NCBI RefSeq assembly: GCF_000017305.1
Contig: NC_009664.2
Span: forward strand, 4,170,001-4,202,000
DNA: 32,000 nucleotides
DNA from: Kineococcus radiotolerans SRS30216 = ATCC BAA-149
GTDB taxonomy: Bacteria; Actinomycetota; Actinomycetes; Actinomycetales; Kineococcaceae
Direction: 5' to 3'
Shown here: in pieces, positions 1-17,739 of the stretch
How the letters are laid out: the number at the start of each line of letters is the position of its first letter
Position numbering within the stretch: the first letter of the stretch is position 1
The notes under the pieces: model-generated
What the model was told of the DNA's origin: nothing
Database searches by the model: none
The model's input: the letters and a program-made list of their open reading frames with translations, nothing else
Program-made: the position numbers and the translations under genes

Positions 1-1
1 C

Positions 2-619
2 GAACCCTTCGTCCGCACGCCCCTGCTGGATCGGGCCACCGTCCAGGTCCTCACCGCCCTGGGCGCCCGCATCGACGTGCACACCGAGGACGTGTGCCGC
101 CTCTTCGTCGGGCCGCAGGTGTGGACGGTCCAGCGTTCGCACCCGGTGACCTGGATCCTCACACCCGGCGGTGTGCGCGGCGAGCTGCACGTGCGCGAGC
201 TGCTGCCGCAGTGGCTCACCGCCCTGATCGGCTCGACCCTGGTGGGCACCTGCGCGCTGCCCGACCCCGTCACCGGGACCGAGGTGGAGCACCGCTACGG
301 GCGGGTGGGGGTGTGGCGCGCGACGGGCGAGGAGCCCGGGCGCCAGGAGCTGGCCGAGTTCGGCGCGGACCGCGAGGCCGACGTGGCGCTGTTCCAGCGG
401 ACGGTGGGTCGCACGGTGAAGGAGGTCGCGGCCGCCTACGGCATCGGGCCGCGCCCCGCCCTGACGCTGGAGCTGCTCGTGGCACGCGAGGCCGAGGCGG
501 TGGCGCGGGCGGAGACGCAGACACGAACCGCCGGCGGGCGCCAGGGGCCGTCGCGTCCACTCAGCTGGTGGACACGGACACGGACACGGGCACGGGCACG
601 GGCCCGCGGCCGACGCTGA
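2..619 (+). CDS. hypothetical protein, 5'-truncated by window edge
   Basis: Frame 2 is open from base 2 (EPFVRTPLLDRATVQVLTALGARIDVHTED...) and runs into the listed 77..619 ORF, so the gene starts upstream of the window. Strong G/C at codon position 3. No family recognised. The C-terminus is a TR/AR run encoded by the 571-606 hexamer repeat. Stop TGA 617-619. Confidence 0.6.
   Translation, partial: EPFVRTPLLDRATVQVLTALGARIDVHTEDVCRLFVGPQVWTVQRSHPVTWILTPGGVRGELHVRELLPQWLTALIGSTLVGTCALPDPVTGTEVEHRYGRVGVWRATGEEPGRQELAEFGADREADVALFQRTVGRTVKEVAAAYGIGPRPALTLELLVAREAEAVARAETQTRTAGGRQGPSRPLSWWTRTRTRARARARGRR
571..606. repeat. hexanucleotide tandem repeat (GACACG)x3 (GGCACG)x2 GGCCCG
   Basis: Read directly: gacacg gacacg gacacg ggcacg ggcacg ggcccg. 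It is in frame within the 3' end of the 2..619 CDS (TRTRTRARARAR). Confidence 0.9.
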
Positions 620-901
620 CAGCGCGCCGCTGGTGCTGCCGGTCGGGTACGGGGGTACAGCCCCGGCTGATCCTGCGCTCGGCGCTCGGCACCTCCACGT
701 CCTGGGGCTCTCCGAACCCACAGGTGGGTAGCCCACCCTGACCCGCGTCGCCGCCTCCACCAAGGCCGGGTGCGCCGCCCCTCCAGGCGCGCTCCTGGAC
801 GCCAGCCGCCCCGACGAGGGCTCCACGCCGGGACGACGCACCAGCGAGCGCACCGCGGCGACGGCTCCAGCACCTGGTAGCCATCGCTCGCTGTCCTAGG
901 G

Positions 902-919
902 ACCGGTGGGCTCACCGGT
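902..919 (-). terminator. candidate intrinsic terminator hairpin
   Basis: ACCGGTG-GGCT-CACCGGT: perfect 7-bp stem, 4-nt loop, 13 nt 3' of the stop (932-934) of the minus-strand gene. No U-tract, as is common in high-GC actinobacteria. Confidence 0.4.
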
Positions 920-931
920 GTGGGCGCGGCG

Positions 932-1468
932 TCAGGCGCTCGTGTTCCCCAGCGCTGCAGCCACTCCGCCCACGCGCAGTTCAGCGTCGAGGGCGCCCTC
1001 GTTGAAGCGCTCGTTGCGCAGCAGACCCACGAGGTAGCGCACCGCGTCGGCTACCGGCGCCCGCCGCAGTGAGTCCGCATCGGTGTGCGTGCTGCGCCCG
1101 TGCCAGTGCACCCAGTCGTAGGGCAGCAGCACCCCCGAGCGGTCGAGCTGGGTGCGCAGCAGTTCGACCCCGGGGCTGTACTGGATGTAGGGGAAGTGGT
1201 GCACGCCCGGCCGGGTCTCGTGCCCGCCCTTCCACTCGTTGCCGGCGGTGGAGGCCGGCAGCACCGCCAGAGAATCCTCGATCTCGCGCCACAGTTGCTC
1301 GGGCACCGCGACCAGCGCCGCCTCGTAGCCCGCATCGCTGGGCTGCTGCACCACCCCAGCGTAGGAGCGGAACTGACACGACGGACCGGTGACGGTGCGC
1401 TGCTCGGGTGATCCCCGCCGCCGTGGCCACCCGGACGGCCCAGCAGCGCCTCGACGCACCCACCGCAC
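932..1468 (-). CDS. DUF6508-like hypothetical protein
   Basis: 178-aa ORF with strong G/C3 below about 1410. The C-terminal two thirds (WKGGHETRPGVHHFPYIQYSPGVELLRTQLDRSGVLLPYDWVHWHG...APVADAVRYLVGLLRNERFNEGALDAEL) matches my memory of the DUF6508 family. Start uncertain: ATG 1468, an internal GTG, or upstream in another frame (see finding). Confidence 0.6.
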   Translation of the reverse strand: MRWVRRGAAGPSGWPRRRGSPEQRTVTGPSCQFRSYAGVVQQPSDAGYEAALVAVPEQLWREIEDSLAVLPASTAGNEWKGGHETRPGVHHFPYIQYSPGVELLRTQLDRSGVLLPYDWVHWHGRSTHTDADSLRRAPVADAVRYLVGLLRNERFNEGALDAELRVGGVAAALGNTSA

Positions 1469-1615
1469 CTGCCGTCATGGCCCGCTCCAGCACCGACCCC
1501 GCCGTGCTGCCGGCCGTCGCGCTGGCCGCGGCCACGTTGGCCGGCACCGCGGTCGTCGACGTCACGGTCCTGTCGAAGTTCGGATGATCACAGGCCAGCC
1601 TTCTAAGCTGCTGGT

Positions 1616-1883
1616 GTGCCCGTCGTGATCGAGGTCGTGGTCGACTTCAACGCCGCGCCCGCGGTGGTCTCCGACGTGGAGCTTGACATCGACGAGCACA
1701 TCAACTTCCTTCAGGGCAGCAGCGAGCGAGGCCAGCACCGCCAGCGACCGACACCACCCGCAGCTCAGCGACGAGGCCACTTTCCGCGGCCGCTGCTGCG
1801 AGCTGGTCCAGCAGATGATCAGCCGCACCACCTCGCACCAGCGACCGCGCCGCCTCGTCGATGCGGAGGCAGCGAGACGCTAG
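1616..1883 (+). pseudogene. possible frameshifted small ORF (about 89 aa if joined)
   Basis: G/C3 bias is near-perfect in the frame of ORF 1616.. (MPVVIEVVVDFNAAPAVVSDVELDIDEHINFLQGSSE) up to about 1735. It then moves to the frame of ORF 1683..1883 (...ASTASDRHHPQLSDEATFRGRCCELVQQMISRTTSHQRPRRLVDAEAARR, stop TAG 1881-1883). No family recognised. Confidence 0.25.
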
Positions 1884-1935
1884 GCAGGCCCGGGTCCTTC
1901 CATGTCCGCGGGTTCGCCCAACAAGCGGTGGACCG

Positions 1936-2547
1936 ATGAACCGGTACACCACGAGCAAGCTGCCAGGCGGGCGAGTGGACGCCAAGCGTTTGACGAGCGC
2001 CCTGGCACGCCTCGAACACCACCTCACGACCCAGGCACCCCAGATCGCGCGAGGACTCCGGCCTCCGATCGAGGTGGAGACCCTGCCCGCGAACGACTAC
2101 CGGCCAGAGCTGCCTCTGCCCGAGGAGGTGCGGATCTGGTTCGCCTGGCACGACGGCATGACCGACGATCCCGCGTTCCGGCTGCCCAGCGGCTACTCGC
2201 CACTGCCGTGGAAGTACGCGGTGAAGTTGACCGACATGCTGACTGAGCCAAACCGCCCGGACGGTCTCGCGCAGCCAGGGCCGTCGATGTTGACGCTGAT
2301 GAACGTCGCGACGAGCTACCTGATGGTCGACTGCAACGTCTCGCCCGGGACAGTCACTCCCGTCCGGCACTGGAACACCCACGAGATGGCCACCTGGCCT
2401 GGAGTCTTCGCCCCGTCCCTGACCGAAACGGTTGAACTGTGGAACAGACTCTTGGTGCGAGGGGCCTACCGGTGGGATGCAGATGGGGACGACTGGGCCG
2501 CCGACGTTCCAGTACACCTCACCACCTACGGCCTCACCCAGATCTGA
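1936..2547 (+). CDS. SMI1/KNR4 (SUKH-1) family protein, immunity-type
   Basis: ATG 1936 (MNRYTTSKL, GGTGGA 4 nt upstream) lies inside the listed 1861..2547 ORF; 203 aa. The LPEEVRIWFAWHDG motif and the overall size and pattern are typical of the SMI1/KNR4 family. Confidence 0.8.
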   Translation: MNRYTTSKLPGGRVDAKRLTSALARLEHHLTTQAPQIARGLRPPIEVETLPANDYRPELPLPEEVRIWFAWHDGMTDDPAFRLPSGYSPLPWKYAVKLTDMLTEPNRPDGLAQPGPSMLTLMNVATSYLMVDCNVSPGTVTPVRHWNTHEMATWPGVFAPSLTETVELWNRLLVRGAYRWDADGDDWAADVPVHLTTYGLTQI

Positions 2548-2568
2548 AGCGCCGCCGGCGTCACCGCT

Positions 2569-2598
2569 GACGTTACGGTCATCCCGCGTTGTGCGCGC
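2569..2598 (+). repeat. motif copy 1: GACGTTACGGTCATCCCGCGTTGTGCGCGC
   Basis: Core GGTCATCCCGCGTTGTGCG at 2577-2595. 27/30 identical to copy 4. Lies between the SUKH stop (2547) and the stop of the minus-strand 72-aa gene (2644). Confidence 0.85.
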
Positions 2599-2643
2599 TC
2601 CTGCGTGACGTCGCTCCTCGCTGCACCGACCCCCACCACCGGG

Positions 2644-2862
2644 TCACAGCACAGCGATGCTCACGACGACCAGGGTCACCCCCACCGTGAGGAGCACCGT
2701 CCTCACCACTCGCACCGCACGGCCGCTCCGCTCCGCCCGAGGCAGCATCAGCTCCGCCCCCACCACGAGGAGCACGCAGCTCGACACCACCTCACGCGGA
2801 CTGCTCTCCTTCACGAGCAACACGACCGCGAGGAACACGAGCACGGCGCCGAGGCAGGCCAC
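2644..2862 (-). CDS. small membrane protein (72 aa)
   Basis: GTG start. Three hydrophobic stretches (ACLGAVLVFLAVVLLV, VVSSCVLLVVGAELML, VLLTVGVTLVVVSIAVL). G/C3 is clearly higher than in the codon-aligned His-rich mirror ORF 2605..3414 on the + strand. Confidence 0.6.
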   Translation of the reverse strand: MACLGAVLVFLAVVLLVKESSPREVVSSCVLLVVGAELMLPRAERSGRAVRVVRTVLLTVGVTLVVVSIAVL

Positions 2863-2962
2863 GAAGCTGAAGCGCTCTTGCTCGGCAGGGGATGCCTTGT
2901 GCTCCTGCTCGGTCCTCGTCCCCGGGTGCTTGCAGACCTCGACGGCGGTGACGACGACTTCC

Positions 2963-2974
2963 GGTCATCCCGCG
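2963..2974 (+). repeat. motif copy 2: GGTCATCCCGCG
   Basis: Exact 12-mer core between the stop of the 227-aa gene (3026) and the start of the 72-aa gene (2862). The upstream flank CGACTTCC resembles the flank of the other copies. Confidence 0.8.
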
Positions 2975-3025
2975 ATCTGGGCGTCTCGTCTGCCGGTGAC
3001 CGGCCCAGCAGGCCAGGCTCTCCGT

Positions 3026-3709
3026 TCAGGTCAGCAGCCCCGCCTCCTGAACCAACCGCAGCGCCTCCCCCGGCTCACGCCGCAGGTGCAGCTCCACGTC
3101 CCAGCGACGGTCAGCTCCCCGCACCTCACGGCGCAGAGACCACCCCAAGGCCACGGCTCCGCTGGTGTCGACCTGGACACCCACCGCGGTACCGGCGACC
3201 TCCACGATCGCGAAGTCCGACGCCGTCGGTAGGGGAAGCAACGAACCGTCAGCGTCGAACTCCTGCCACCGCCGCCCCATCTGCCTCGGCCACTCCTGCT
3301 CATCAGCCTCACGGACGTAGAGAGCCATGGTGTCGCTGCTCAGCACCGAGGACCTCCTCACAGTGCGCCACGTCGAGGACGCCGGCAGGTAGAAGACCGC
3401 GAACGACGAAGTGAAGGGCCTGCCCGACTCCTCGCGCTGGAGACGGGGCTTGCCGTGGCGCCCAGGCACGGCGAACACCTCGCACAAGCCTCCTACCGCC
3501 GTCGGTACCCGTGGTGGGGAGAAGCCCGCCACGGCGGCCAGCTCCTCCTCGCTCACCACCGCCCACGCGTAGGACAGGTGCCCCGGATTGCGTGACGCTG
3601 GCCGCAGCGCCCAGGCCAGGGCATCGGTCGGCGTCAACGCCCGCAGGACAGCACTGACGCCATCGGGCGCCGTGCCGGGCGCCGTGCCGGGCCCCGGCTG
3701 CTCAGACAT
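3026..3709 (-). CDS. hypothetical protein (227 aa)
   Basis: ATG 3709 with GGAGGG 3-4 nt upstream. Coding-type codon bias, weaker than in core genes. A 12-bp tandem duplication at 3665-3688 gives GTAPGTAP near the N-terminus. No family recognised. Confidence 0.7.
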   Translation of the reverse strand: MSEQPGPGTAPGTAPDGVSAVLRALTPTDALAWALRPASRNPGHLSYAWAVVSEEELAAVAGFSPPRVPTAVGGLCEVFAVPGRHGKPRLQREESGRPFTSSFAVFYLPASSTWRTVRRSSVLSSDTMALYVREADEQEWPRQMGRRWQEFDADGSLLPLPTASDFAIVEVAGTAVGVQVDTSGAVALGWSLRREVRGADRRWDVELHLRREPGEALRLVQEAGLLT

Positions 3710-3811
3710 GCACCCTCCAGGTCAACGACCCACGCCTCCATCGACACGCTGCGAATGACGAGCCCTCGCTGAGGGTCTCGTGACACCACTATGGGTCGGA
3801 AACGATTTCAC

Positions 3812-3822
3812 GGTCATCCCGC
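3812..3822 (+). repeat. motif copy 3: GGTCATCCCGC (11/12)
   Basis: In the intergenic region between the divergent 227-aa gene (start 3709) and the 99-aa gene (start 3919). Upstream flank CGATTTCAC. Confidence 0.75.
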
Positions 3823-3918
3823 CACCAGGAAGTCGTCGATCGCCCGCACCTGTCGATCTGCGGTAAGTCGTCCAACCTCTCCACCGCGGGACTCAGGTGG
3901 AAGAGCAGAAGGCTGCCG

Positions 3919-4218
3919 ATGATCGTCCCTAGGGTGGAGAACGTGGACGCACCGCACAACGATCGACGACGGCGGCTCGGTCGGGTCATCGCCATCACCG
4001 GAGTCCTCGTCATGGTCGTGCCGGCGGGCTGGTGCGTGTTGTGCGCCTACTGGTCCTTCACCGGGTGCTTCATGACCTGTGGGCCGGGCGACCCACTGGT
4101 CGGGACGTTCTGGGGTGGGGTCGCAGTCGTTCTGCTGGGCGCCCCCGTGCTGGGTGGCCGGATGATCGCCCGGGGGCCTCGTCGGCCACGGGGGTCAGAC
4201 GAAGGGGCGAGCCCCTGA
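3919..4218 (+). CDS. small membrane protein (99 aa)
   Basis: ATG 3919 with GAAGG about 8 nt upstream. G/C3 is high by eye. Basic N-terminus, then two hydrophobic helices rich in Cys/Trp (VIAITGVLVMVVPAGWCVLCAYW; TFWGGVAVVLLGAPVLGG). Confidence 0.6.
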   Translation: MIVPRVENVDAPHNDRRRRLGRVIAITGVLVMVVPAGWCVLCAYWSFTGCFMTCGPGDPLVGTFWGGVAVVLLGAPVLGGRMIARGPRRPRGSDEGASP

Positions 4219-4277
4219 GCAAGCAGGGTCGGGTTCACGTCGCTCAGCTGGACGAGCACGTCGAAGCTCTGCGGGCG

Positions 4278-4307
4278 GACGTCATGGTCATCCCGCGTTG
4301 TGCGTGC
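4278..4307 (+). repeat. motif copy 4: GACGTCATGGTCATCCCGCGTTGTGCGTGC
   Basis: Core GGTCATCCCGCGTTGTGCG at 4286-4304. 27/30 identical to copy 1. Lies 43 nt 3' of the stop (4348) of a minus-strand ORF remnant. Confidence 0.85.
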
Positions 4308-4347
4308 AGATGCCGCCACCTCACACCGCCGGTCTCCGGTACGGCAG

Positions 4348-4585
4348 TCACACGTCGAGGACACCATCTCGAGCTCGCGCCGCAGGGGGGATCCGATCGG
4401 TGTCCAAGTCCTCCATCGACCCCACGTCGGCGTACTCCGGGTACTCGATCCGCCCCACCTCATCGAACAAGCCCACCCGCCGGCGCAGGATCAACCCCGG
4501 ATGCGAGGAACGCCCGAACGTTCACTCCAAGCGCGCGTCGGGTCACCTCCACGACTGTCACCGGTGTCTCGATGCAAACCGTCAC
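4348..4585 (-). pseudogene. frame-split small gene remnant (about 85 aa if joined)
   Basis: Two overlapping minus-strand ORFs in different frames. 4460..4585 (GTG) reads MTVCIETPVTVVEVTRRALGVNVRAFLASG.... 4348..4494 (TTG/GTG) reads ...LILRRRVGLFDEVGRIEYPEYADVGSMEDLDTDRIPPAARARDGVLDV. Each looks protein-like only over its own part, as expected for a 1-nt indel near 4490-4500. Family unknown. Confidence 0.25.
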
Positions 4586-4619
4586 CGAGGACCTGAGGGA
4601 TCACACCACCGGCGCCCGT

Positions 4620-5315
4620 CTACGGCTCGCTCACGTGCGCGGCGAGCTGGAGCAGGGAGGTGATCCGGACCTCCTCCTCCACCGTCGCGGTGCCGGCGCG
4701 GTCCAGGTGCACCGCGCGCAGGCCCGCTGCCCGTGCACCGAGGACGTCGACGCTGTGGTCGTCGCCGACGTACAGCGTCTGCTCGGGTGCCACCCCCAGG
4801 TGCTCGCACACGCGCAGGAACGCCTGCGGCCGGGGTTTGGCCACGCCGAGCTCCTCGGCGGTGAAGACCGGGCCCAGGCGCCCGCTCAGGCCGATGGCCT
4901 CGATCTTGGCGTTCTGCTGCTGCCGGGTGCCGTTGGTGAGCACGGCGGTGCGCAGCCCCGCCGCCTGCACGGCCCGCAGGGCGGCGTCGACGTCGTCGAA
5001 CCCCGTCCACGCCTGCTGGTAGGCGGTCAGGAAGCCGGTGGTGAAGAGGTCGTCGAGTTCGGCGTCATCACCGACGGGCAGTCGCAGCAGGGGCAGCACG
5101 TCGCGCAACCGGCGGCGGCGCTGTTCGGCGAAGCTGATCCGCCCGTCGCGCCAGGAGGCGAAGTGGCGTTGCTCGGCGGCTCGCCACGCCTCCTCCAGCT
5201 CGGGGGTGCTGGTCCGGCCCAGGGCCTGCGCCCAGGTGCGCAGGCCGCTGCGCGTCGCGGTGGAGTGGTCGAAGAGGGTGTCGTCGAGGTCGAAGACCAC
5301 GGCTGCCAGCGGCAC
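4620..5315 (-). CDS. HAD-superfamily hydrolase (subfamily IA type)
   Basis: Motif I VVFDLDDTL, motif II VLTNG, motif III K in GVAKPRP, motif IV YVGDDHSVDVLGARAAG. GTG start 5315, TAG stop. Confidence 0.9.
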   Translation of the reverse strand: MPLAAVVFDLDDTLFDHSTATRSGLRTWAQALGRTSTPELEEAWRAAEQRHFASWRDGRISFAEQRRRRLRDVLPLLRLPVGDDAELDDLFTTGFLTAYQQAWTGFDDVDAALRAVQAAGLRTAVLTNGTRQQQNAKIEAIGLSGRLGPVFTAEELGVAKPRPQAFLRVCEHLGVAPEQTLYVGDDHSVDVLGARAAGLRAVHLDRAGTATVEEEVRITSLLQLAAHVSEP

Positions 5316-5475
5316 GCCCGCAGCTTAGTGAGCCCTGGAGACGCCCGCGAGGTGGCCGGCTCGCCCGCCCGGGGCCAGCGGGCGGACCGCTTGGTCGCTG
5401 CCCGGCCGAACCCGGCCCCGCGGGGCGTCAGGTAGGGACGCCCGGATCGCGGACGGCCGCGGGGTGCGCTCCCGC

Positions 5476-5940
5476 TCAGGGGCCGTGCGGCCAGGCCCGG
5501 CCGAGGACCGCCGCGGCGTCCTGGTCGAGGATGAGGCCGTGCTCGACGAGCCGGGCGGCGAGGCGGGCGGGGGCGGGGTGGTGGCCCGCCTCGGCGGTGC
5601 GGCGCAGGTACGTGCTCCAGTAGGCGCGGTTCCAGGTCAGCGGGTCCGCGTCGTAGCGGGCGAGCTCGGCGCACCACTGCTCACGCCAGCGGGCGGCGAG
5701 TTCGTCGCGCCCGTGGTGTCCGCCGCTGATGACGGCGGCTTCGTCGAGGGGGGCGCGGCGCAGGTCGTGCAGGAGCAGCCACGCCTGGTGCAGCGGCTCG
5801 GGCCCGCTGGAGCAGTCCACCGCCCGGCCGGGGTCCGCGGCCCAGTCGGCGGCGGCCGCGCGGCTGAGGCGTCCGGCGGCGACGTCGTCCCAGGTGCGGT
5901 GCAGGTCAGATCGGAGACGGTCCGAGGTGGGGTCCGGCAC
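5476..5940 (-). CDS. hypothetical protein (154 aa)
   Basis: GTG start 5940. The frame looks coding and its composition is non-degenerate (MPDPTSDRLRSDLHRTWDDVAAGRL...). No family recognised. Confidence 0.6.
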   Translation of the reverse strand: MPDPTSDRLRSDLHRTWDDVAAGRLSRAAAADWAADPGRAVDCSSGPEPLHQAWLLLHDLRRAPLDEAAVISGGHHGRDELAARWREQWCAELARYDADPLTWNRAYWSTYLRRTAEAGHHPAPARLAARLVEHGLILDQDAAAVLGRAWPHGP

Positions 5941-11552: not shown

Positions 11553-11744
11553 GTCCGCTCGCGCGGCCTCGTCCGTTCCAGCGGCCAGCCGGCCCCGATC
11601 ACCCGTGCGCCGAGCAGGACCGCGACGTCGCCGGCCGCTGACGTCCGGCCCGGATCGCGGGGTGACCGCGAACCCGGGTCCGTCGTCGAGCCCCGCCCTC
11701 CACCCCAGGGATGAGGGACCGTGAGCCGATGATCCGCCCACGCG

Positions 11745-12506
11745 GTGATGCCCCGGCCACCTCCGTCGCGGCACCCTCGGGTCATGAGCCGACCCGCCGC
11801 CCCGCCGACCTCGCCGCGCACCCCGTGGGCCGGGCTCGGTCGGCGCACCGAGCGGAGCGGTGAACCGGACGGTGGTCCGGGCGGCCTGGGGGCGGCGCCG
11901 GTGCTCGGGGCGGCGGTGCTGATCGGTGTGGGCTGGGGGGCGGCGACGTCCGGCTTGCAGACGGTGCTGCCCTGGCCCTTCGCCGGGTTGGCCAACGCCG
12001 TGGGCCCCTGGGTCGCTCCCGCGTTCCTGGTCGGGGCCTGGAGCAGGCGGCCCTGGGCCGCGGTGCTGGCGGGTGTCCTGGTGTGCTTCGGGGAGGTCGC
12101 CGGCTACTACGCCGTGTCCGCGGCGCGCGGCTTCGGCGTCAACCCCGCCACGGTCGTGATGTGGACCGCGACCGGTGTCCTCGGTGGGCCGGTCCTGGGG
12201 ATGGCCGGGTGGTGCTGGCGGCGGGCACGTCCGTTGCGCGTGGCCGCGCTGGGGGCGGCGCTGCTCGGTGGGGTCTTCCTCGCGGAGGGTGTGGTCACCT
12301 ACGGCGTCTACCTGCGCTACACGGGCGACGCCGTCGTCTTCTGCGTCCTCGGCGCCGTCCTCGTGGCGGTGCTCGGCGCCACCGCGTCTGCGGCGCGGGC
12401 GAGCGGTGCGCGTGCCCGGGGCGTCGGTGCGGCCGCGGCGTGGCTGCTGCTGGTGCTGCCGCTGGGTGCGGCCGGCGAAGTGCTGTTGCACCTCGTCGTG
12501 ACCTGA
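11745..12506 (+). CDS. multi-pass membrane protein (DUF6518-like)
   Basis: Six or so hydrophobic helices. LQTVLPWPFAGLANAVGPWVAPAFLVGAW resembles my memory of DUF6518. Start uncertain (GTG 11745, ATG 11748 or ATG 11784); the N-terminus is Pro/Arg-rich. Confidence 0.6.
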   Translation: MMPRPPPSRHPRVMSRPAAPPTSPRTPWAGLGRRTERSGEPDGGPGGLGAAPVLGAAVLIGVGWGAATSGLQTVLPWPFAGLANAVGPWVAPAFLVGAWSRRPWAAVLAGVLVCFGEVAGYYAVSAARGFGVNPATVVMWTATGVLGGPVLGMAGWCWRRARPLRVAALGAALLGGVFLAEGVVTYGVYLRYTGDAVVFCVLGAVLVAVLGATASAARASGARARGVGAAAAWLLLVLPLGAAGEVLLHLVVT

Positions 12507-12652: not shown

Positions 12653-13717
12653 TCAGGGCCGGGGCGCGCGGGCCCGCGCGAGGCGCACCCAGGAGGCCAC
12701 CGCCGCCCCGCACAGGAGGAGGGCGACGACGGTCCGCCACCACCCTCCCGTCTCGCCGTCGATCAGTGACCGCGCGAGGTTCGTCAGGGCGAGGACCCCG
12801 AACAGCGTGGCGGCCGCCGCTCGCCAGGCCGCCCGGCGCCGGCGCGGTGCGTCGTCCCCGTCGGTGAGGACGACGGCGTACGCCTGCGGCGTCCCGAACT
12901 CCACCTGCGGGTGCTCGGTGCCGCCGGCCCGCCAGAACGCCCGGGCCTCGTCGACCTCCCGGCGGGTTCTCGCCGGGGCCATGAGGTGCCGTCCGCGCAG
13001 CAGGTGCTCGAGCCGGGTGAACCACTTGTCGGGGGTGGTGTCGTCAGGAACTCCCGCAGTTCCCGCGGCCGCTCGTCGCCTCCGCAGGAGGACCCCCGCC
13101 GCGACGATCGCGACGCAGGCGAGCAGGGGCGCCGACATGGGCACGTCGACGCGCGCCGGGTCGTCACGCAGCGCCCACGCCGCCCCGAGACCCGCGACCG
13201 CCACCGCGGCCGTTCCCACCCACGCGGAACGGCTGCTGCGCAGGCGCCCCGCGCCGCGTCGGCGCAGCGCCTCACCGCCCAGGAGGAACGTGGCGAGGAC
13301 GGCGGCGAGGAGCGCGGCGTGGGCGTAGCCGTGTTCCGCCGTCCACCCCTCGCGGGCGGTGGTGCCGATCGAGATGGCCAGCCCCACGACGCCGAGGCGC
13401 AGGACGACGGCGGAGGCGTCGAAACCCTCGGGCAGGCCGTCCCGGTCGTAGCGGGCCCGCAGTTCGGGGTCGAGGGACTCCTGCGGCCGCTGCCGCACGT
13501 ACTCCGAGGGTGTTCCGAACACCTCGGTGGCGGGCCGGCCGGAGTCCCGGCACGCCGCGCGGGCCTGTTCCAGGACGGCGTCGGCCAGCACCTGCGGGAC
13601 GTCGTCGCGCAGCAGGCCGGCGCGCACCCGGCGGGCCCAGTCCTCGTCGCCGGCGGTGGGCCGGTCCTGGTCGGGTCCCGTCACGGACCGGTCGTCCTCG
13701 CTCAGGTCGGCGTTCAT
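12653..13717 (-). CDS. PadR-associated membrane protein with two HAAS/DUF1700-like modules
   Basis: ATG 13717 overlaps the PadR stop (ATGA at 13714-13717). 354 aa. Module 1 (EDWARRVRAGLLRDDVPQVLADAVLEQARAACRDSGRPATEVFGTPSEYV) is followed by 4 TM helices. Module 2 (DKWFTRLEHLLRGRHLMAPARTRREVDEARAFWRAGGTEHPQVEFGTPQAYA) is followed by 2 TM helices. Confidence 0.7.
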   Translation of the reverse strand: MNADLSEDDRSVTGPDQDRPTAGDEDWARRVRAGLLRDDVPQVLADAVLEQARAACRDSGRPATEVFGTPSEYVRQRPQESLDPELRARYDRDGLPEGFDASAVVLRLGVVGLAISIGTTAREGWTAEHGYAHAALLAAVLATFLLGGEALRRRGAGRLRSSRSAWVGTAAVAVAGLGAAWALRDDPARVDVPMSAPLLACVAIVAAGVLLRRRRAAAGTAGVPDDTTPDKWFTRLEHLLRGRHLMAPARTRREVDEARAFWRAGGTEHPQVEFGTPQAYAVVLTDGDDAPRRRRAAWRAAAATLFGVLALTNLARSLIDGETGGWWRTVVALLLCGAAVASWVRLARARAPRP

Positions 13718-14079
13718 CTCTCCCCCTCGTCGACGGTCACGGGTGTCTCCAGCCGCACGCCGAGGACTCCGGCGACGGCGGCGGCGAAGGCGGGCCACCC
13801 GTCGCGGACCTGCTGCGTGCGTTCCCGGCCGGAGGCGGTGAGGCGGAAGACCTTCCGGCCCGGGCCCGCGGTCCCCTCCTGCCAGGTCGAGGTCAGCAGC
13901 CCGTCCTGCTCCAGCTTGTTCAGGACGGGGTAGAGGGCGCCGCCGCGCACGGCTCCGATGCCGGCGGCCTGCAGCCGCTGGGCGATCGCGTACCCGTGGG
14001 TCTCGCCGTCGGCGAGGACGGCCAGCGCGCAGGTCGCCAGGACCCCCCGCTGCCACTCGCCCGAACGAACCCCGTCCAC
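13714..14079 (-). CDS. PadR-family transcriptional regulator
   Basis: LAVLADGETHGYAIAQRLQAAGIGAVRGGALYPVLNKLEQDGLLTSTWQEG...GRKVFRLTASG is the canonical PadR wHTH. GTG start 14079. Confidence 0.92.
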   Translation of the reverse strand: MDGVRSGEWQRGVLATCALAVLADGETHGYAIAQRLQAAGIGAVRGGALYPVLNKLEQDGLLTSTWQEGTAGPGRKVFRLTASGRERTQQVRDGWPAFAAAVAGVLGVRLETPVTVDEGER

Positions 14080-14106
14080 GGGACCACTGTGGGCGTGGCT
14101 GGCCTG

Positions 14107-14139
14107 GAAGTCAACTAGTCCGACTTCAGACTAGGAAGT
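14107..14139. promoter_or_regulatory. candidate PadR operator (nested dyads in an AT-richer island)
   Basis: The sequence is GAAGTCAACTAGTCCGACTTCAGACTAGGAAGT. It contains CTAGTC(14115-14120)-N8-GACTAG(14129-14134), interleaved with GAAGTC(14107-14112)/GACTTC(14122-14127)/GGAAGT(14134-14139). It lies 28-60 bp upstream of the PadR start. Confidence 0.4.
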
Positions 14140-16314: not shown

Positions 16315-16397
16315 GGGATCCGCTGCCCGCGGCGACCGTCCGGTCGTGGCCGGTCAGGACGTCCGCGGGTGACCGTGATCGTGCCCGGACCGCGAGA

Positions 16398-17459
16398 TCA
16401 CCGTGAGGTCGTCCCGCCGGCCAGGTCGAGGGCCTCGTCGCACCACCTGACCAGGTGGGACAGGGCCACGCCGCGCTGGTGGTGGAGGTGCACGGCGTCG
16501 GCGCGCTGGTGGTAGGCGTCGTGCTCGGTGTCGGCGGCCTTCTGCAGCAGCAGGGGCAGCAGCCAGGTGTACTTCACGCAGGAGGCGACGACCCCGAGGC
16601 GGGCGTCGCGGTCGGTGCCGTCCCAGCCGCCGGCCCGCAACCCCTCCAGGTACGCGGGGAAGCAGGCCGCTTCCAGTTCCGCGAGGCGTTCGGCGGGCCA
16701 GAACAGGTCGAAGACGGCGTCGGGCAGGTAGTTGCCGAGGTCCTCCCCGACGGCGCCGTCGCCGGCGAAGGCCCAGTCCAGCAGGACGACCTCACCGTTG
16801 GGGCGGCGGATGACGTTGGCGACCCAGGCGTCGAGGTGGCAGAGGGTGCGGGGCAGGGTCTCCACCACCCTCAGCAGGTCCTCGCGGTGGGCCAGCAGCC
16901 GCGCCCACCCCGACCGCAGGTCAGGGGGCCAGGTGCCGCGGATGAGGGGCTGCTCCCACGCCGCGTCGGCTTCGGCGGTGTCGTCGACGAGGGTGAGGTC
17001 GCCGGGGCGACTGGTGGAGTAGGCGCGCAGGAAGCCGTGCGAGGCCCACGCCGGGGTGGGCTGGAGGGGTCGGGCCTGCCAGCGCCCCAGCGCGGTGGCG
17101 GTGGCGACGTGGTCGTCGAGGGTGAAGTCGGCCCCGGCGGTACCGGGCACGTCCTCCAGCCACAGGTCGATGCCCTCCTCACCGGGGCGGACGTCGGCGG
17201 TGGGCAGGTCCAGGCCGGTACCGGTGAGGGAGGCCCGCAGTCGTGGGTCGGTGTAGACCTCGGCTTCGCGGGCCCAGTAGTTCCAGTCGCTGGGGGTGGC
17301 CGAGGAGGCCCAGTGCGCGGGGGCGGTGGCGACGGTTCCGGCGCGGCGCAGTTGCTTGTGGATGCGGGTGGTGCCGTCGGGGGCGAGGACGCGTTCGACG
17401 ACACCGGTGGTGGCGTTGTCCGGGTTGAACCTCAGCGTCCGGCGCTGCCGCGGGGGCAT
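16398..17459 (-). CDS. phosphotransferase (APH/choline-kinase-like) family protein
   Basis: Brenner motif LCHLDAWVANVI (HxDxxxxN) and metal-binding VVLLDWAFAGDG. 353 aa. Confidence 0.85.
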   Translation of the reverse strand: MPPRQRRTLRFNPDNATTGVVERVLAPDGTTRIHKQLRRAGTVATAPAHWASSATPSDWNYWAREAEVYTDPRLRASLTGTGLDLPTADVRPGEEGIDLWLEDVPGTAGADFTLDDHVATATALGRWQARPLQPTPAWASHGFLRAYSTSRPGDLTLVDDTAEADAAWEQPLIRGTWPPDLRSGWARLLAHREDLLRVVETLPRTLCHLDAWVANVIRRPNGEVVLLDWAFAGDGAVGEDLGNYLPDAVFDLFWPAERLAELEAACFPAYLEGLRAGGWDGTDRDARLGVVASCVKYTWLLPLLLQKAADTEHDAYHQRADAVHLHHQRGVALSHLVRWCDEALDLAGGTTSR

Positions 17460-17739
17460 GGCCGCGATCCTCGCAGGCGGAGCGACGGCCTGGTCGTCGG
17501 GCGGGGGGCACGACAGCGGGACGACCGGATCACCCGTTCACGGCCGAGGCGCTTCGGCGGGGGCAGGGTTCGGCGGAGGTTCGCCGCTGAGTCGTGCTGC
17601 GAGCGTGGGCGGAAGGCGGCGCGCGGGCCCTGCTCGTGCTGCTCGTCGGCACGTACCTGGGGGTTTCGGCGCCGAGCGGGCTGGTGATCCACCACCGGTG
17701 GGCGGGTGGCACCTGGCCACCCGCCCACCTCCGGCGGGA

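What the first reader, a model, noticed from the sequence alone, without database searches (positions are those of the whole stretch)
2569..4307. Four same-orientation GGTCATCCCGC(G) motifs split an accessory patch into single-gene units
The core GGTCATCCCGCG (11/12 in one copy) occurs at 2577, 2963, 3812 and 4286, always on the + strand. I saw no other copy by eye in the 32 kb. The outer copies share 27 of 30 bases (GACGTYAYGGTCATCCCGCGTTGTGCGYGC). The inner copies keep a weaker upstream flank (CGACTTCC, CGATTTCAC). All four lie between ORFs. They bracket three one-gene units: a 72-aa 3-TM protein (-), a 227-aa unknown (-) and a 99-aa 2-TM protein (+). For three copies the motif sits about 43-51 nt 3' of the stop of a minus-strand ORF (stops at 2644, 3026, 4348). 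No hairpin is conserved across the copies. Every reading frame through the motif is antisense to, or outside, a better ORF. I recognise no repeat family. The patch has visibly weaker G/C3 bias than flanking genes and abuts a SUKH immunity-type gene. Possible roles are recombination or attachment-type sites of a cassette array, a shared 3'-end or processing signal, or an operator for a regulator outside the window.
Basis: seen in the sequence. Interest (0 to 1): 0.7.

Follow-up and report, generated by a model that had tools for sequence, protein, structure and literature searches.

The report
Integron-like cassette sites in Kineococcus
The repeated 12-base motif is the centre of a 30-base recombination site that bounds small mobile gene cassettes in Kineococcus chromosomes; this looks like an undescribed integron-like gene-capture system in a phylum whose genomes lacked complete integrons in the 2016 survey.

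Summary
GGTCATCCCGC(G) occurs at 2577, 2963, 3812 and 4286, all on the + strand, far above chance. The window is from the Kineococcus radiotolerans SRS30216 chromosome.

The motif is the core of a 30-nt site, cGACyTCAC|GGTCATCCCGCG|gTGCGCGCG. Its shape is two 11-bp imperfectly inverted arms around an asymmetric 8-bp centre, TCATCCCG.

In about 20 Kineococcus species these sites form strand-consistent arrays. I found 339 cores in 504 kb, and the median spacing is 615 nt. Each interval usually holds one gene, in either orientation.

Synteny between strains breaks exactly at the sites. Homologous units recur in different arrays and species with different neighbours. Sequence identity switches inside the invariant 11-nt core.

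The cargo resembles that of integron cassettes: GNAT acetyltransferases, toxin-antitoxins, immunity-like proteins and many proteins of unknown function. Cassette GC is 69%, against 75% for the backbone.

A conserved Xer-like tyrosine recombinase sits inside the arrays on the motif strand. Its relatives in other Actinomycetota are flanked by variant sites that share TCATSCCGC (51 on its strand, 4 opposite).

I conclude these are site-specific recombination sites of a cassette array. It works like integrons or rAID-1, but it is not a member of either. The enzyme assignment and actual activity are inferred, not shown.

The parts
2568..2597 (+). Site c1: 30-nt recombination-type site (core 2577-2588). 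It is the left boundary of the 72-aa cassette. Synteny with the second K. radiotolerans strain and with a metagenome relative ends here.
   Evidence: matrix score 39.7. In one search, homology to L138 and L139 stops at window 2575.
2954..2983 (+). Site c2 (core 2963-2974)
   Evidence: score 27.7
3803..3832 (+). Site c3 (core 3812-3823, GGTCATCCCGCC)
   Evidence: score 28.5
4277..4306 (+). Site c4 (core 4286-4297), the last site of the array
   Evidence: score 36.1
2577..2962 (+). Cassette A, 386 nt, 69.2% GC. It holds one ORF, 2644-2862 (-), 72 aa, a small hydrophobic protein. The frame stays open up to 2964, and relatives are called at 91-103 aa.
   Evidence: The same unit occurs at 84-92% identity, core to core, in L163, L221, L241, L138 and L139; L163, L221 and L241 have different neighbours.
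2963..3811 (+). Cassette B, 849 nt. It holds one ORF, 3026-3709 (-), 227 aa, with a weak DUF6228 match.
   Evidence: It is 95-96% identical, core to core, in L138 and L139.
3812..4285 (+). Cassette C, 474 nt. It holds one ORF, 3919-4218 (+), 99 aa, a small hydrophobic protein.
   Evidence: It is 98-99% identical in L138 and L139.
4286..4600 (+). Truncated terminal cassette. The 48-aa ORF at 4348-4494 (-) is the C-terminal fragment of a larger cassette gene. The array ends here against the conserved HAD hydrolase gene (4620-5315, -).
   Evidence: In one search, window 4348-4471 matches the 3' end of the 505-aa gene L225 4126-5640 at 74% identity. Searches show the backbone is conserved to the right.
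1..2576 (+). Right-hand part of a 7.8-kb multi-gene unit that starts at a degenerate site 5204 nt left of the window. Within the window it holds a DUF6508 gene (932-1354, -) and a Knr4/Smi1-like (SUKH-type) gene (1936-2547, +). This unit is absent from the other K. radiotolerans strain.
11647..11676 (-). Solo degenerate site (core GGTCACCCCGCG) outside the array. It is conserved in the second strain.
   Evidence: L138 2041; score 21.5
16382..16411 (-). Solo degenerate site (GACCTCAC|GGTGATCTCGCG). It overlaps the stop codon of gene 16398-17537 (-).
   Evidence: score 26.0

Best explanation
The motif is the invariant centre of a roughly 30-bp double-stranded site for a site-specific tyrosine recombinase. 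Sites in direct repeat divide chromosomal arrays into small gene cassettes. Each cassette usually carries one gene, in either orientation.

A cassette consists of position 12 of the core, the right arm (gTGCGCGCG...), the cargo gene, and the left arm (...cGACyTCAC). Recombination between two flanking sites would excise it as a circle carrying one complete site. Recombination of that circle with any array site would insert it. Strand exchange takes place within the shared core. This explains why the core is 99-100% invariant while the arms drift.

The most likely enzyme is a conserved, roughly 308-aa Xer-like tyrosine recombinase. It is encoded inside the arrays on the same strand as the sites.

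What is shown here: site anatomy, array structure, cassette discreteness and mobility over evolutionary time, location of the exchange point, and co-occurrence with the recombinase. What is inferred: the circular intermediate, the identity of the enzyme, and present-day activity in strain SRS30216.
For: 1. Enrichment and polarity. A pattern scan of one genome per species returned 113 blocks. Seventy-two came from 18 Kineococcus species, and 41 were singletons from unrelated taxa, which is about chance level. The Kineococcus blocks hold 220 exact and 119 one-mismatch cores in 504 kb. All sites lie on one strand in 73 of 75 loci.

2. Site anatomy. The logo from 355 sites is conserved from -9 to +21. 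Seven of 11 arm positions are complementary at consensus level. The centre is an asymmetric 8 bp, TCATCCCG. There is no covariation beyond the consensus.

3. Cassette-like units. There are 313 inter-site units, with a median of 615 nt and an interquartile range of 387-952 nt. Of 267 units of at least 200 nt, 243 have one good ORF that covers about 76% of the unit.

4. Boundaries.
- Window-to-L138 and window-to-L139 homology ends at window 2575. L138-to-L139 homology ends at another site.
- Forty-six unit pairs are homologous over nearly their full length. Many have different neighbours on one or both sides. One pair is 99.6% identical between two species, and one is 99.8% identical within a single array.
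- At left junctions, identity is 26-53% at the non-consensus flank positions from -16 to -2. It is 87-100% across core positions +1 to +12 and 76-99% from +13 to +24.
- At right junctions, identity is 71-100% up to +11. It then falls to 41% at +12 and 25% at +13.

5. Cargo and composition. The cargo includes GNAT acetyltransferases, Phd/YefM antitoxins, nucleotidyltransferases, glyoxalase and many domains of unknown function. Cassette GC is 69.3%, against 75.4% for the backbone.

6. Recombinase.
- It was found in five motif-selected blocks from five species. It was also found in arrays reached through the protein itself, in K. endophyticus and K. sp. DHX-1. It is always on the motif strand.
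- In 80 metagenome loci carrying relatives, TCATSCCGC occurs 51 times on the recombinase strand and 4 times on the opposite strand. Permuted controls give about 5.
- Thirteen of those copies lie 33-87 nt upstream of the recombinase gene.
- Variant arrays occur around relatives in Cellulomonas, Jatrophihabitans and Motilibacter.
Against: - No recombinase gene lies in the 32-kb window or in the 7 kb to its left.
- No K. radiotolerans member of the recombinase family appeared in the clusters I read. The SRS30216 array may therefore be an orphan array, served in trans or inactive.
- No circular cassette or excision junction was observed. All evidence of mobility is comparative.
- The dyad symmetry of the arms is modest, at 7 of 11 positions.
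- The right-hand edge of the array is a truncated cassette with no terminal site.
- IS110-family transposases also sit in some arrays. A second enzyme class is therefore associated with them.
- Many left-junction pairs share only the first few tens of nucleotides. Some of that signal reflects site subfamilies rather than whole cassettes.
Confidence: 0.75

Rival explanations
1. The units are non-autonomous transposable elements (MITE-like or mobilised insertion cassettes). A transposase would insert them specifically into the 11-12-nt target and duplicate it. One candidate is the IS110-family enzyme seen in several arrays. Under this view the direct repeats are target duplications rather than recombinase sites.
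For: IS110-family transposase genes lie inside arrays in Cellulomonas (two copies) and in K. sp. DHX-1. From general knowledge, IS110/IS1111 elements target repeated sequences such as REP and attC. The unit ends show a weak inverted symmetry, GTGnGnnCG. Arrays of site-only units also exist.
Against: From general knowledge, IS110-family elements have no terminal inverted repeats and make no long target duplications. The transposase is present in only a few arrays and on the opposite strand. The tyrosine recombinase family co-varies in strand, and across genera, with the conserved centre TCATSCCGC. The 11+8+11 layout is the classical layout of tyrosine recombinase sites.
Confidence: 0.1
2. The motif is a passive intergenic repeat, like REP elements, with some DNA- or RNA-level housekeeping role. 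Cassette shuffling would then be a by-product of homologous or microhomology-mediated recombination between copies, with no dedicated enzyme.
For: No recombinase lies near the SRS30216 array. Outer copies share up to 33 nt. Some unit starts share longer stretches.
Against: - The 11-nt core is 98-100% invariant at every position across 355 sites in about 20 species, while the flanks vary.
- Strand polarity is strict within arrays.
- The exchange point always maps inside the core.
- Thirty base pairs is at or below the usual lower limit for RecA-dependent exchange (general knowledge).
- A specific recombinase family co-occurs with the site across orders.
Confidence: 0.08
3. The motif is a transcription- or RNA-level signal shared by the accessory genes. 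It could be a terminator or 3'-end processing site, or an operator for a regulator.
For: In the window three copies lie 51-56 nt past the stop codons of minus-strand ORFs. Genus-wide, the gap from a stop codon to the next site is typically 49-70 nt.
Against: - ORFs are on the motif strand in 127 units and on the opposite strand in 116. The same oriented sequence is therefore upstream, downstream, sense and antisense.
- There is no conserved hairpin and no covariation.
- No Rfam family matches.
- No terminator- or promoter-like hits were found.
- A signal of this kind does not explain homology that ends inside the core.
Confidence: 0.04

Closest known systems
Integrons (IntI integrase, attI and attC sites, gene cassettes; sedentary chromosomal integrons such as those of Vibrio)
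   Same: Both have long chromosomal arrays of small units, mostly one gene each, bounded by recombination sites in one orientation. Cassette size is similar (median about 0.6 kb). Cargo is similar: GNAT acetyltransferases, toxin-antitoxin pairs, glyoxalase-type proteins and many unknowns. Composition is atypical. The same cassette turns up in different arrays and species. A tyrosine recombinase is involved.
   Different: - The site here is a short, sequence-conserved, dif/lox-like 30-bp site. It is not a 57-141-nt structure-conserved attC hairpin; no hairpin or covariation was found.
- The recombinase scores 53 bits against the integron-integrase model, whose cut-off is 265.
- The recombinase gene sits mid-array on the same strand as the sites, not divergently at the head.
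- Cassette genes face either way (127 against 116). A single Pc promoter cannot serve them.
- The host phylum lacked complete integrons in the 2016 survey (PMC4889954).
rAID-1, the recombinase-associated acquired interbacterial defence clusters of Bacteroidales (Ross et al. 2019, bioRxiv 10.1101/471110)
   Same: Both combine a XerD-family tyrosine recombinase, repetitive intergenic sequences described as reminiscent of integrons, skewed GC content, and arrays of small genes that include orphan immunity genes. The Kineococcus arrays and their relatives hold SUKH/Smi1-Knr4, Imm8, Imm5-like, WapI and DUF6924-type genes.
   Different: The phylum is different. The repeat sequence is unrelated. The cargo here is broader than immunity genes. 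The recombinase is not fixed at the head of the array. I could not test homology between the two recombinases. For rAID-1, the text I read gives no site architecture or exchange point.
Xer/dif-type sites and the pdif (dif-module) cassettes of Acinetobacter plasmids
   Same: Both have short sites built from two roughly 11-bp imperfectly inverted arms around a short asymmetric centre. Small gene modules are bracketed by such sites. The recombinase is Xer-like by sequence; its best solved relative is XerD (1a0p, E 4e-20).
   Different: The centre here is 8 bp and the total 30 bp, against 6 and 28 for dif. There is no resemblance to the conserved XerD arm (general knowledge). The sites are in direct repeat, not alternating orientation. 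The arrays are chromosomal, and no close relative of the recombinase is on PLSDB plasmids (best 41.5% identity). The likely enzyme is a dedicated multi-copy recombinase. It falls below the XerC and XerD equivalog cut-offs (118 against 335 bits and 116 against 330 bits), so it is not the housekeeping XerC/XerD pair.
Small 'simple' actinophage integrases (Brujita-type; Arthrobacter and Gordonia phage integrases)
   Same: Both are tyrosine recombinases of about 300 aa without an arm-binding domain. They share about 46% identity. The Brujita Gp33 structure 5vfz is among the solved relatives.
   Different: Those enzymes integrate a whole phage at a single attB site. Here the enzyme family sits in arrays of many sites that bound single genes.

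Membership tests
Integron | IntI-type integrase (tyrosine recombinase with the IntI-specific extra domain) | tested here: not met
   NCBIfam integron integrase TIGR02249 scores 53 bits against a cut-off of 265, and NF011946 scores 29 against 435. No recombinase lies in the window.
Integron | attC sites: imperfect palindromes of about 57-141 nt, conserved in structure rather than sequence, that recombine as folded single strands | tested here: not met
   The site is a 30-nt conserved sequence. There is no consistent local hairpin around 300 isolated sites. Mirrored positions show no covariation beyond the consensus.
Integron | Array of discrete mobile cassettes bounded by same-orientation sites | tested here: met
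Integron | Cassette genes co-oriented and expressed from a common Pc promoter at the array head | tested here: not met
   The best ORF is on the motif strand in 127 units and on the opposite strand in 116.
rAID-1 (Bacteroidales) | XerD-family tyrosine recombinase conserved with the array | tested here: inconclusive
   A Xer-like recombinase is embedded in arrays in at least 7 Kineococcus loci. It is absent near the SRS30216 array. Homology to the rAID-1 recombinase was not tested because no sequence was at hand.
rAID-1 (Bacteroidales) | Repetitive intergenic sequences, skewed GC and orphan immunity genes | tested here: met
   Repeats. GC of 69.3% against 75.4%. Immunity-type genes are present but are a minority of the cargo.
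Xer/dif and pdif modules | 28-bp site with XerC and XerD arms (11+6+11), acted on by the host XerC/XerD pair | tested here: inconclusive
   The layout is similar at 11+8+11. The associated enzyme is below the XerC and XerD equivalog cut-offs. The Kineococcus chromosomal dif site and XerC/XerD action could not be examined.
Xer/dif and pdif modules | Modules flanked by sites in alternating (inverted) orientation, on plasmids | tested here: not met
   Sites are direct repeats in 73 of 75 loci. The arrays are chromosomal, and neither the cassettes nor close relatives of the recombinase were found on PLSDB plasmids.
REP/BIME or MITE-type intergenic repeats | Palindromic units or terminal inverted repeats, scattered genome-wide in both orientations | tested here: not met
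   There is no hairpin. Sites are strand-consistent and clustered. The genome-wide distribution in SRS30216 itself could not be tested because that genome is not in the scanned collection.
CRISPR array | Short repeats separated by unique spacers of about 25-50 nt | tested here: not met
   The intervals are genes of 0.2-3 kb. The 26-34-nt tandem stretches are site-only repeats with no unique spacers.

The most novel reading that the evidence does not exclude
A widespread gene-capture system in Actinomycetota that is analogous to integrons but evolved independently. In this reading a highly conserved Xer-like tyrosine recombinase family (75-100% identical across orders) recombines simple 30-bp dif/lox-like sites that share the 8-bp overlap TCATSCCG. 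It thereby builds and shuffles chromosomal super-arrays of single-gene cassettes, about 56 kb long in K. sp. DHX-1, and moves cassettes between species. The K. radiotolerans motif would be its first recognised trace.
Probability: 0.6. Interest if true: 0.9.

Novelty: new variant of a known kind. Interest (0 to 1): 0.85.

Why it matters
Integrons are the textbook platform for capturing and shuffling gene cassettes. They were reported absent as complete elements from all Actinobacteria genomes surveyed in 2016 (PMC4889954). A second platform that works the same way would matter for several reasons.

- It would show that cassette-array gene capture evolved more than once. This platform uses a different recombinase family and a simple double-stranded site, and it sits in the phylum that supplies most antibiotics and many resistance genes.
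- It would give a handle for finding accessory, defence, immunity and resistance genes in soil Actinomycetota. One could scan for the site or for the recombinase.
- It would make the mechanistic question directly testable, because the site is short and the recombinase is small.
- The 30-bp site and its roughly 308-aa enzyme could also serve as a new recombination tool for high-GC bacteria.

Tried and rejected
- **Coding readings.** The three frames through the motif on each strand give no conserved peptide. ORFs starting at the ATG on the minus strand are 15-58 aa long and unrelated.
- **Promoter or leaderless-start reading of CGCGGGATGACC.** No -10-like element lies at a fixed distance, and the promoter scan found none.
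- **Terminator or processing reading.** Rejected because ORF orientation is mixed and there is no hairpin.
- **Known RNA families.** None matched at E<=1.
- **Recombinase in or near the window.** None was found in 39 kb.
- **Fixed Logan contig breaks (window 2599/2626; L009 318).**
  - I first read them as possible transcript ends or excision junctions.
  - The geometry fits exact repeats of 30-32 nt elsewhere in the genome, that is, paralogous cassette starts.
  - I do not count them as evidence of excision.
- **K. radiotolerans itself.** It is not in the genome collection, so its genome-wide site count could not be obtained.
- **Plasmid search for the cassettes.** No match.
- **Literature searches** for the sequences and for the concept found nothing.
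Full report
**1.

GGTCATCCCGCG is present exactly at 2577, 2963 and 4286, and with one mismatch at 3812. All four copies are on the + strand. With up to one mismatch the window has 5 matches, against 0.9 expected from dinucleotide shuffles, and no shuffle reached 5. The outer copies share 33 nt at 88% identity.

The copies lie between the best ORFs. They bracket a 72-aa ORF (-), a 227-aa ORF (-) and a 99-aa ORF (+). The patch is 66-69% GC in a window of 74.6% GC.

Exact protein look-ups identify the source as the Kineococcus radiotolerans SRS30216 chromosome, around Krad_2830-2832.

**2. The array is longer than the window shows.**

A 13-kb public contig is identical to window 1-5779 and extends 7.2 kb to the left. 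It carries two more exact + strand copies and one degenerate copy (AATCATCCCGCG).

A position matrix built from all family members finds only six sites in the window. These are the four array sites plus two degenerate solo sites on the minus strand, at 11667 and 16402. Shuffled windows give 0.05 hits per window at a score of 14 or more.

**3. Strain comparison.**

I compared the window with a second K. radiotolerans strain (L138) and a related metagenome contig (L139). Both have the same three cassettes at 93-99% identity and the same conserved backbone to the right: the HAD hydrolase, YCII, DUF6924 and LysR genes.

Homology to the window stops at position 2575, the 5' edge of copy 1. Beyond it, the relatives carry other units, each bounded by the motif: a PadR+HAAS pair, a 105-aa gene and a DUF6924 gene. 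L138 and L139 in turn diverge from each other exactly at another copy.

**4. Genus-wide picture.**

I scanned one genome per bacterial species with GGTCATCCCGCGNTSWGNGCG. The scan returned 113 8-kb blocks. Seventy-two came from 18 Kineococcus species. The other 41 were singletons from unrelated taxa, about what chance predicts.

- The Kineococcus blocks (504 kb) contain 220 exact and 119 one-mismatch cores.
- In 73 of 75 loci, all sites lie on one strand.
- The logo of 355 sites is cGACyTCAC|GGTCATCCCGCG|gTGCGCGCG. It is conserved from -9 to +21, with core positions 1-11 at 98-100%.
- The 313 inter-site intervals have a median of 615 nt and an interquartile range of 387-952 nt.
- Thirty-nine intervals are under 40 nt. 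These are tandem site-only repeats of 26-29 nt.

**5. The intervals behave as discrete mobile cassettes.**

Of 267 intervals of at least 200 nt, 243 hold one good ORF that fills about 76% of the interval. These ORFs fall into 188 protein families among the 243.

An all-against-all comparison finds 46 interval pairs that are homologous over nearly their full length. Many have unrelated neighbours on one or both sides.
- The window's 72-aa unit recurs at 88-92% identity in three other contexts.
- One unit is 99.6% identical between two species.
- One unit is duplicated at 99.8% identity within a single array.

A per-position profile locates the exchange point.
- At cassette starts, identity is 26-53% at the non-consensus flank positions from -16 to -2. 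It is 87-100% across core positions +1 to +12 and 76-99% from +13 to +24.
- At cassette ends, identity is 71-100% up to +11. It then falls to 41% at +12 and 25% at +13.

Exchange therefore occurs inside the invariant 11-nt core. Position 12 and the right arm travel with the downstream cassette. The left arm travels with the upstream cassette.

**6. Site architecture.**

At consensus level, 7 of the 11 positions from -9 to +2 are complementary to positions +11 to +21. The central 8 bp, TCATCCCG, is asymmetric. Complementarity equals what the column frequencies predict, so there is no covariation. Isolated sites show no consistent hairpin.

This layout, 11+8+11, is that of classical double-stranded tyrosine recombinase sites such as dif, lox and FRT (general knowledge). 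It is not that of a folded attC. It also accounts for two features. The centre is invariant because partners must match across the overlap region. The tandem repeats are simply abutting complete sites.

**7. It is not a transcription or RNA signal.**

- ORFs lie on the motif strand in 127 units and on the opposite strand in 116.
- No Rfam family matches.
- No promoter- or terminator-like hits were found.

**8. Cargo.**

A Pfam census of 150 representative cassette proteins is led by GNAT acetyltransferases. It also includes Phd/YefM antitoxins, nucleotidyltransferases, MFS transporters, glyoxalase, DJ-1/PfpI, GrpB, TerD and many domains of unknown function.

Immunity-type genes occur in the arrays or beside them: Knr4/Smi1, Imm8, Imm5-like, WapI and DUF6924. 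Cassettes have a median GC of 69.3%, against 75.4% for the window backbone.

**9. Candidate enzyme.**

One cassette-ORF family is a roughly 308-aa tyrosine recombinase. It has the Phage_integrase and SAM-like N-terminal domains. It scores below the XerC, XerD and IntI thresholds. Its nearest solved relative is XerD.

Within Kineococcus:
- It occurs in five motif-selected blocks from five species.
- It occurs in arrays reached through the protein itself, in K. endophyticus and K. sp. DHX-1.
- It is always on the motif strand.
- In DHX-1 it sits in the middle of a region of about 56 kb (2.144-2.200 Mb) that is dense with sites.

Beyond Kineococcus:
- The family is 75-100% identical across Actinomycetota.
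- Relatives in Cellulomonas, Jatrophihabitans and Motilibacter are surrounded by variant sites that share TCATGCCGC. These include single-gene units in Jatrophihabitans and a 17-copy, 34-nt site-only array in Motilibacter.
- In 80 metagenome loci, TCATSCCGC occurs 51 times on the recombinase strand and 4 times on the opposite strand. Permuted controls give about 5, with a maximum of 11.
- Thirteen of those copies lie 33-87 nt upstream of the recombinase gene.
- The family is absent from PLSDB plasmids; the best match is 41.5% identical.
- It is about 46% identical to small actinophage integrases.

**10. Limits.**

- No recombinase lies within 39 kb of the SRS30216 array.
- I could not establish whether this strain has a member of the recombinase family.
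- The K. radiotolerans genome is not in the scanned collection, so its genome-wide site distribution is unknown.
- The array's right edge is a truncated cassette. Window 4348-4471 is a fragment of a 505-aa cassette gene.
- Circles, enzyme activity and the exact cleavage positions are inferred, not observed.

**11. Comparison with known systems.**

The system works like an integron. It fails the defining integron tests on the integrase (IntI), on the site (attC structure) and on co-oriented cassettes driven by a Pc promoter.

Its closest conceptual relative is rAID-1 of Bacteroidales. That system combines a XerD-family recombinase, repetitive intergenic sequences and skewed GC.

Its site layout resembles Xer/dif sites. 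However, the sites are direct repeats on chromosomes, not alternating sites on plasmids.

Complete integrons were reported absent from all Actinobacteria genomes surveyed in 2016. Literature searches for the sequences and for the concept found no description.

**12. Verdict.**

The finding is real and non-trivial. I rate it a new variant of a known kind, a site-specific-recombination cassette platform, with high interest.

Noticed in passing
window 11647-11676 (-) and 16382-16411 (-): Two solo, degenerate members of the site family lie outside the array on the opposite strand. The one at 16402 overlaps the stop codon of gene 16398-17537. It is followed 25 nt later by a second degenerate copy (CACGGTCACCCGCGG). 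The one at 11667 is conserved in the second K. radiotolerans strain.
   Followed up: partly
window 2597-2628; L009 318-347: Many independent Logan assemblies break at exactly window 2599/2626 and at L009 318. These points lie just inside cassette starts. The geometry implies exact repeats of 30-32 nt elsewhere in the K. radiotolerans genome, that is, paralogous cassette starts in other arrays.
   Followed up: partly
window 5476-5940 (-) and L009 2-304 (+) (about 7 kb left of the window): Two paralogues of a 154-aa protein of unknown function face each other in inverted orientation. They bracket the whole 12.4-kb array region. The second strain's copy of the right-hand gene is 87% identical to the left paralogue over 260 nt, and the two paralogues in SRS30216 share a 30-nt exact stretch. 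The left paralogue ends 18 nt before a site.
   Followed up: partly
window 4348-4494 (-): The 48-aa ORF is the C-terminal fragment of a roughly 505-aa cassette protein seen intact in K. sp. SYSU DK001 (L225 4126-5640). The last cassette of the array is truncated where it meets the backbone.
   Followed up: yes
L235 2856-2972, L242 1220-1320, L249 4288-4355 and 6027-6093, L178 5926-5994; L261 14965-15548: Tandem site-only arrays occur: 3-5 units of 26-29 nt in Kineococcus, and 17 units of 34 nt in Motilibacter. Between successive cores lies a perfect small inverted repeat, GTGCGC-n-GCGCAC in Kineococcus and CGCGCG-ggtagcat-CGCGCG in Motilibacter. Their origin is unexplained; unequal exchange or slippage are possibilities.
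   Followed up: partly
L258 2002-3240 and 6143-7213; L343 5505-6854: IS110-family transposase genes lie inside the arrays in Cellulomonas and K. sp. DHX-1, on the strand opposite to the sites. They may target the repeated site, as IS1111-type elements target attC.
   Followed up: no
L167 3586-3619: A head-to-head pair of sites shares a perfectly palindromic centre, GCGACGTCGC. This is one of only two loci with sites on both strands, and it may be an inversion junction. In Jatrophihabitans (L262 8745 and 9818), one gene is bracketed by two sites in reverse orientation.
   Followed up: no
L167 2801-2836; L259, L343, L262 just after the recombinase stop codon; metagenome loci L263-L342: A variant box lies 10-35 nt after the recombinase stop codon (CTTCAC-TCATCTGCCGA in K. 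vitellinus). In many metagenome relatives a strong hairpin (GCGTCTCCCGCGG...CCGCGGGAGACGC) is followed by GGCATTGCCGA(T/A)GAG. This may be the recombinase cassette's own end site or a terminator.
   Followed up: partly
L167 1029-1723; L258 11055-11578; L261 11028-11542; L343 11078-11532: Toxin-antitoxin-type gene pairs sit directly beside the recombinase gene in several genera: VapBC, Phd/ParE, and an RHH protein with a small partner protein.
   Followed up: no
window 13714-14130 (-) and 11745-12506 (+): The backbone PadR gene is a distant paralogue (65% nucleotide identity over 240 nt) of the PadR found in a PadR+HAAS cassette of the other strain. DUF6518, encoded at 11745-12506 next to the solo site, is also a cassette family elsewhere (2 of 150 cassette representatives).
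   Followed up: no
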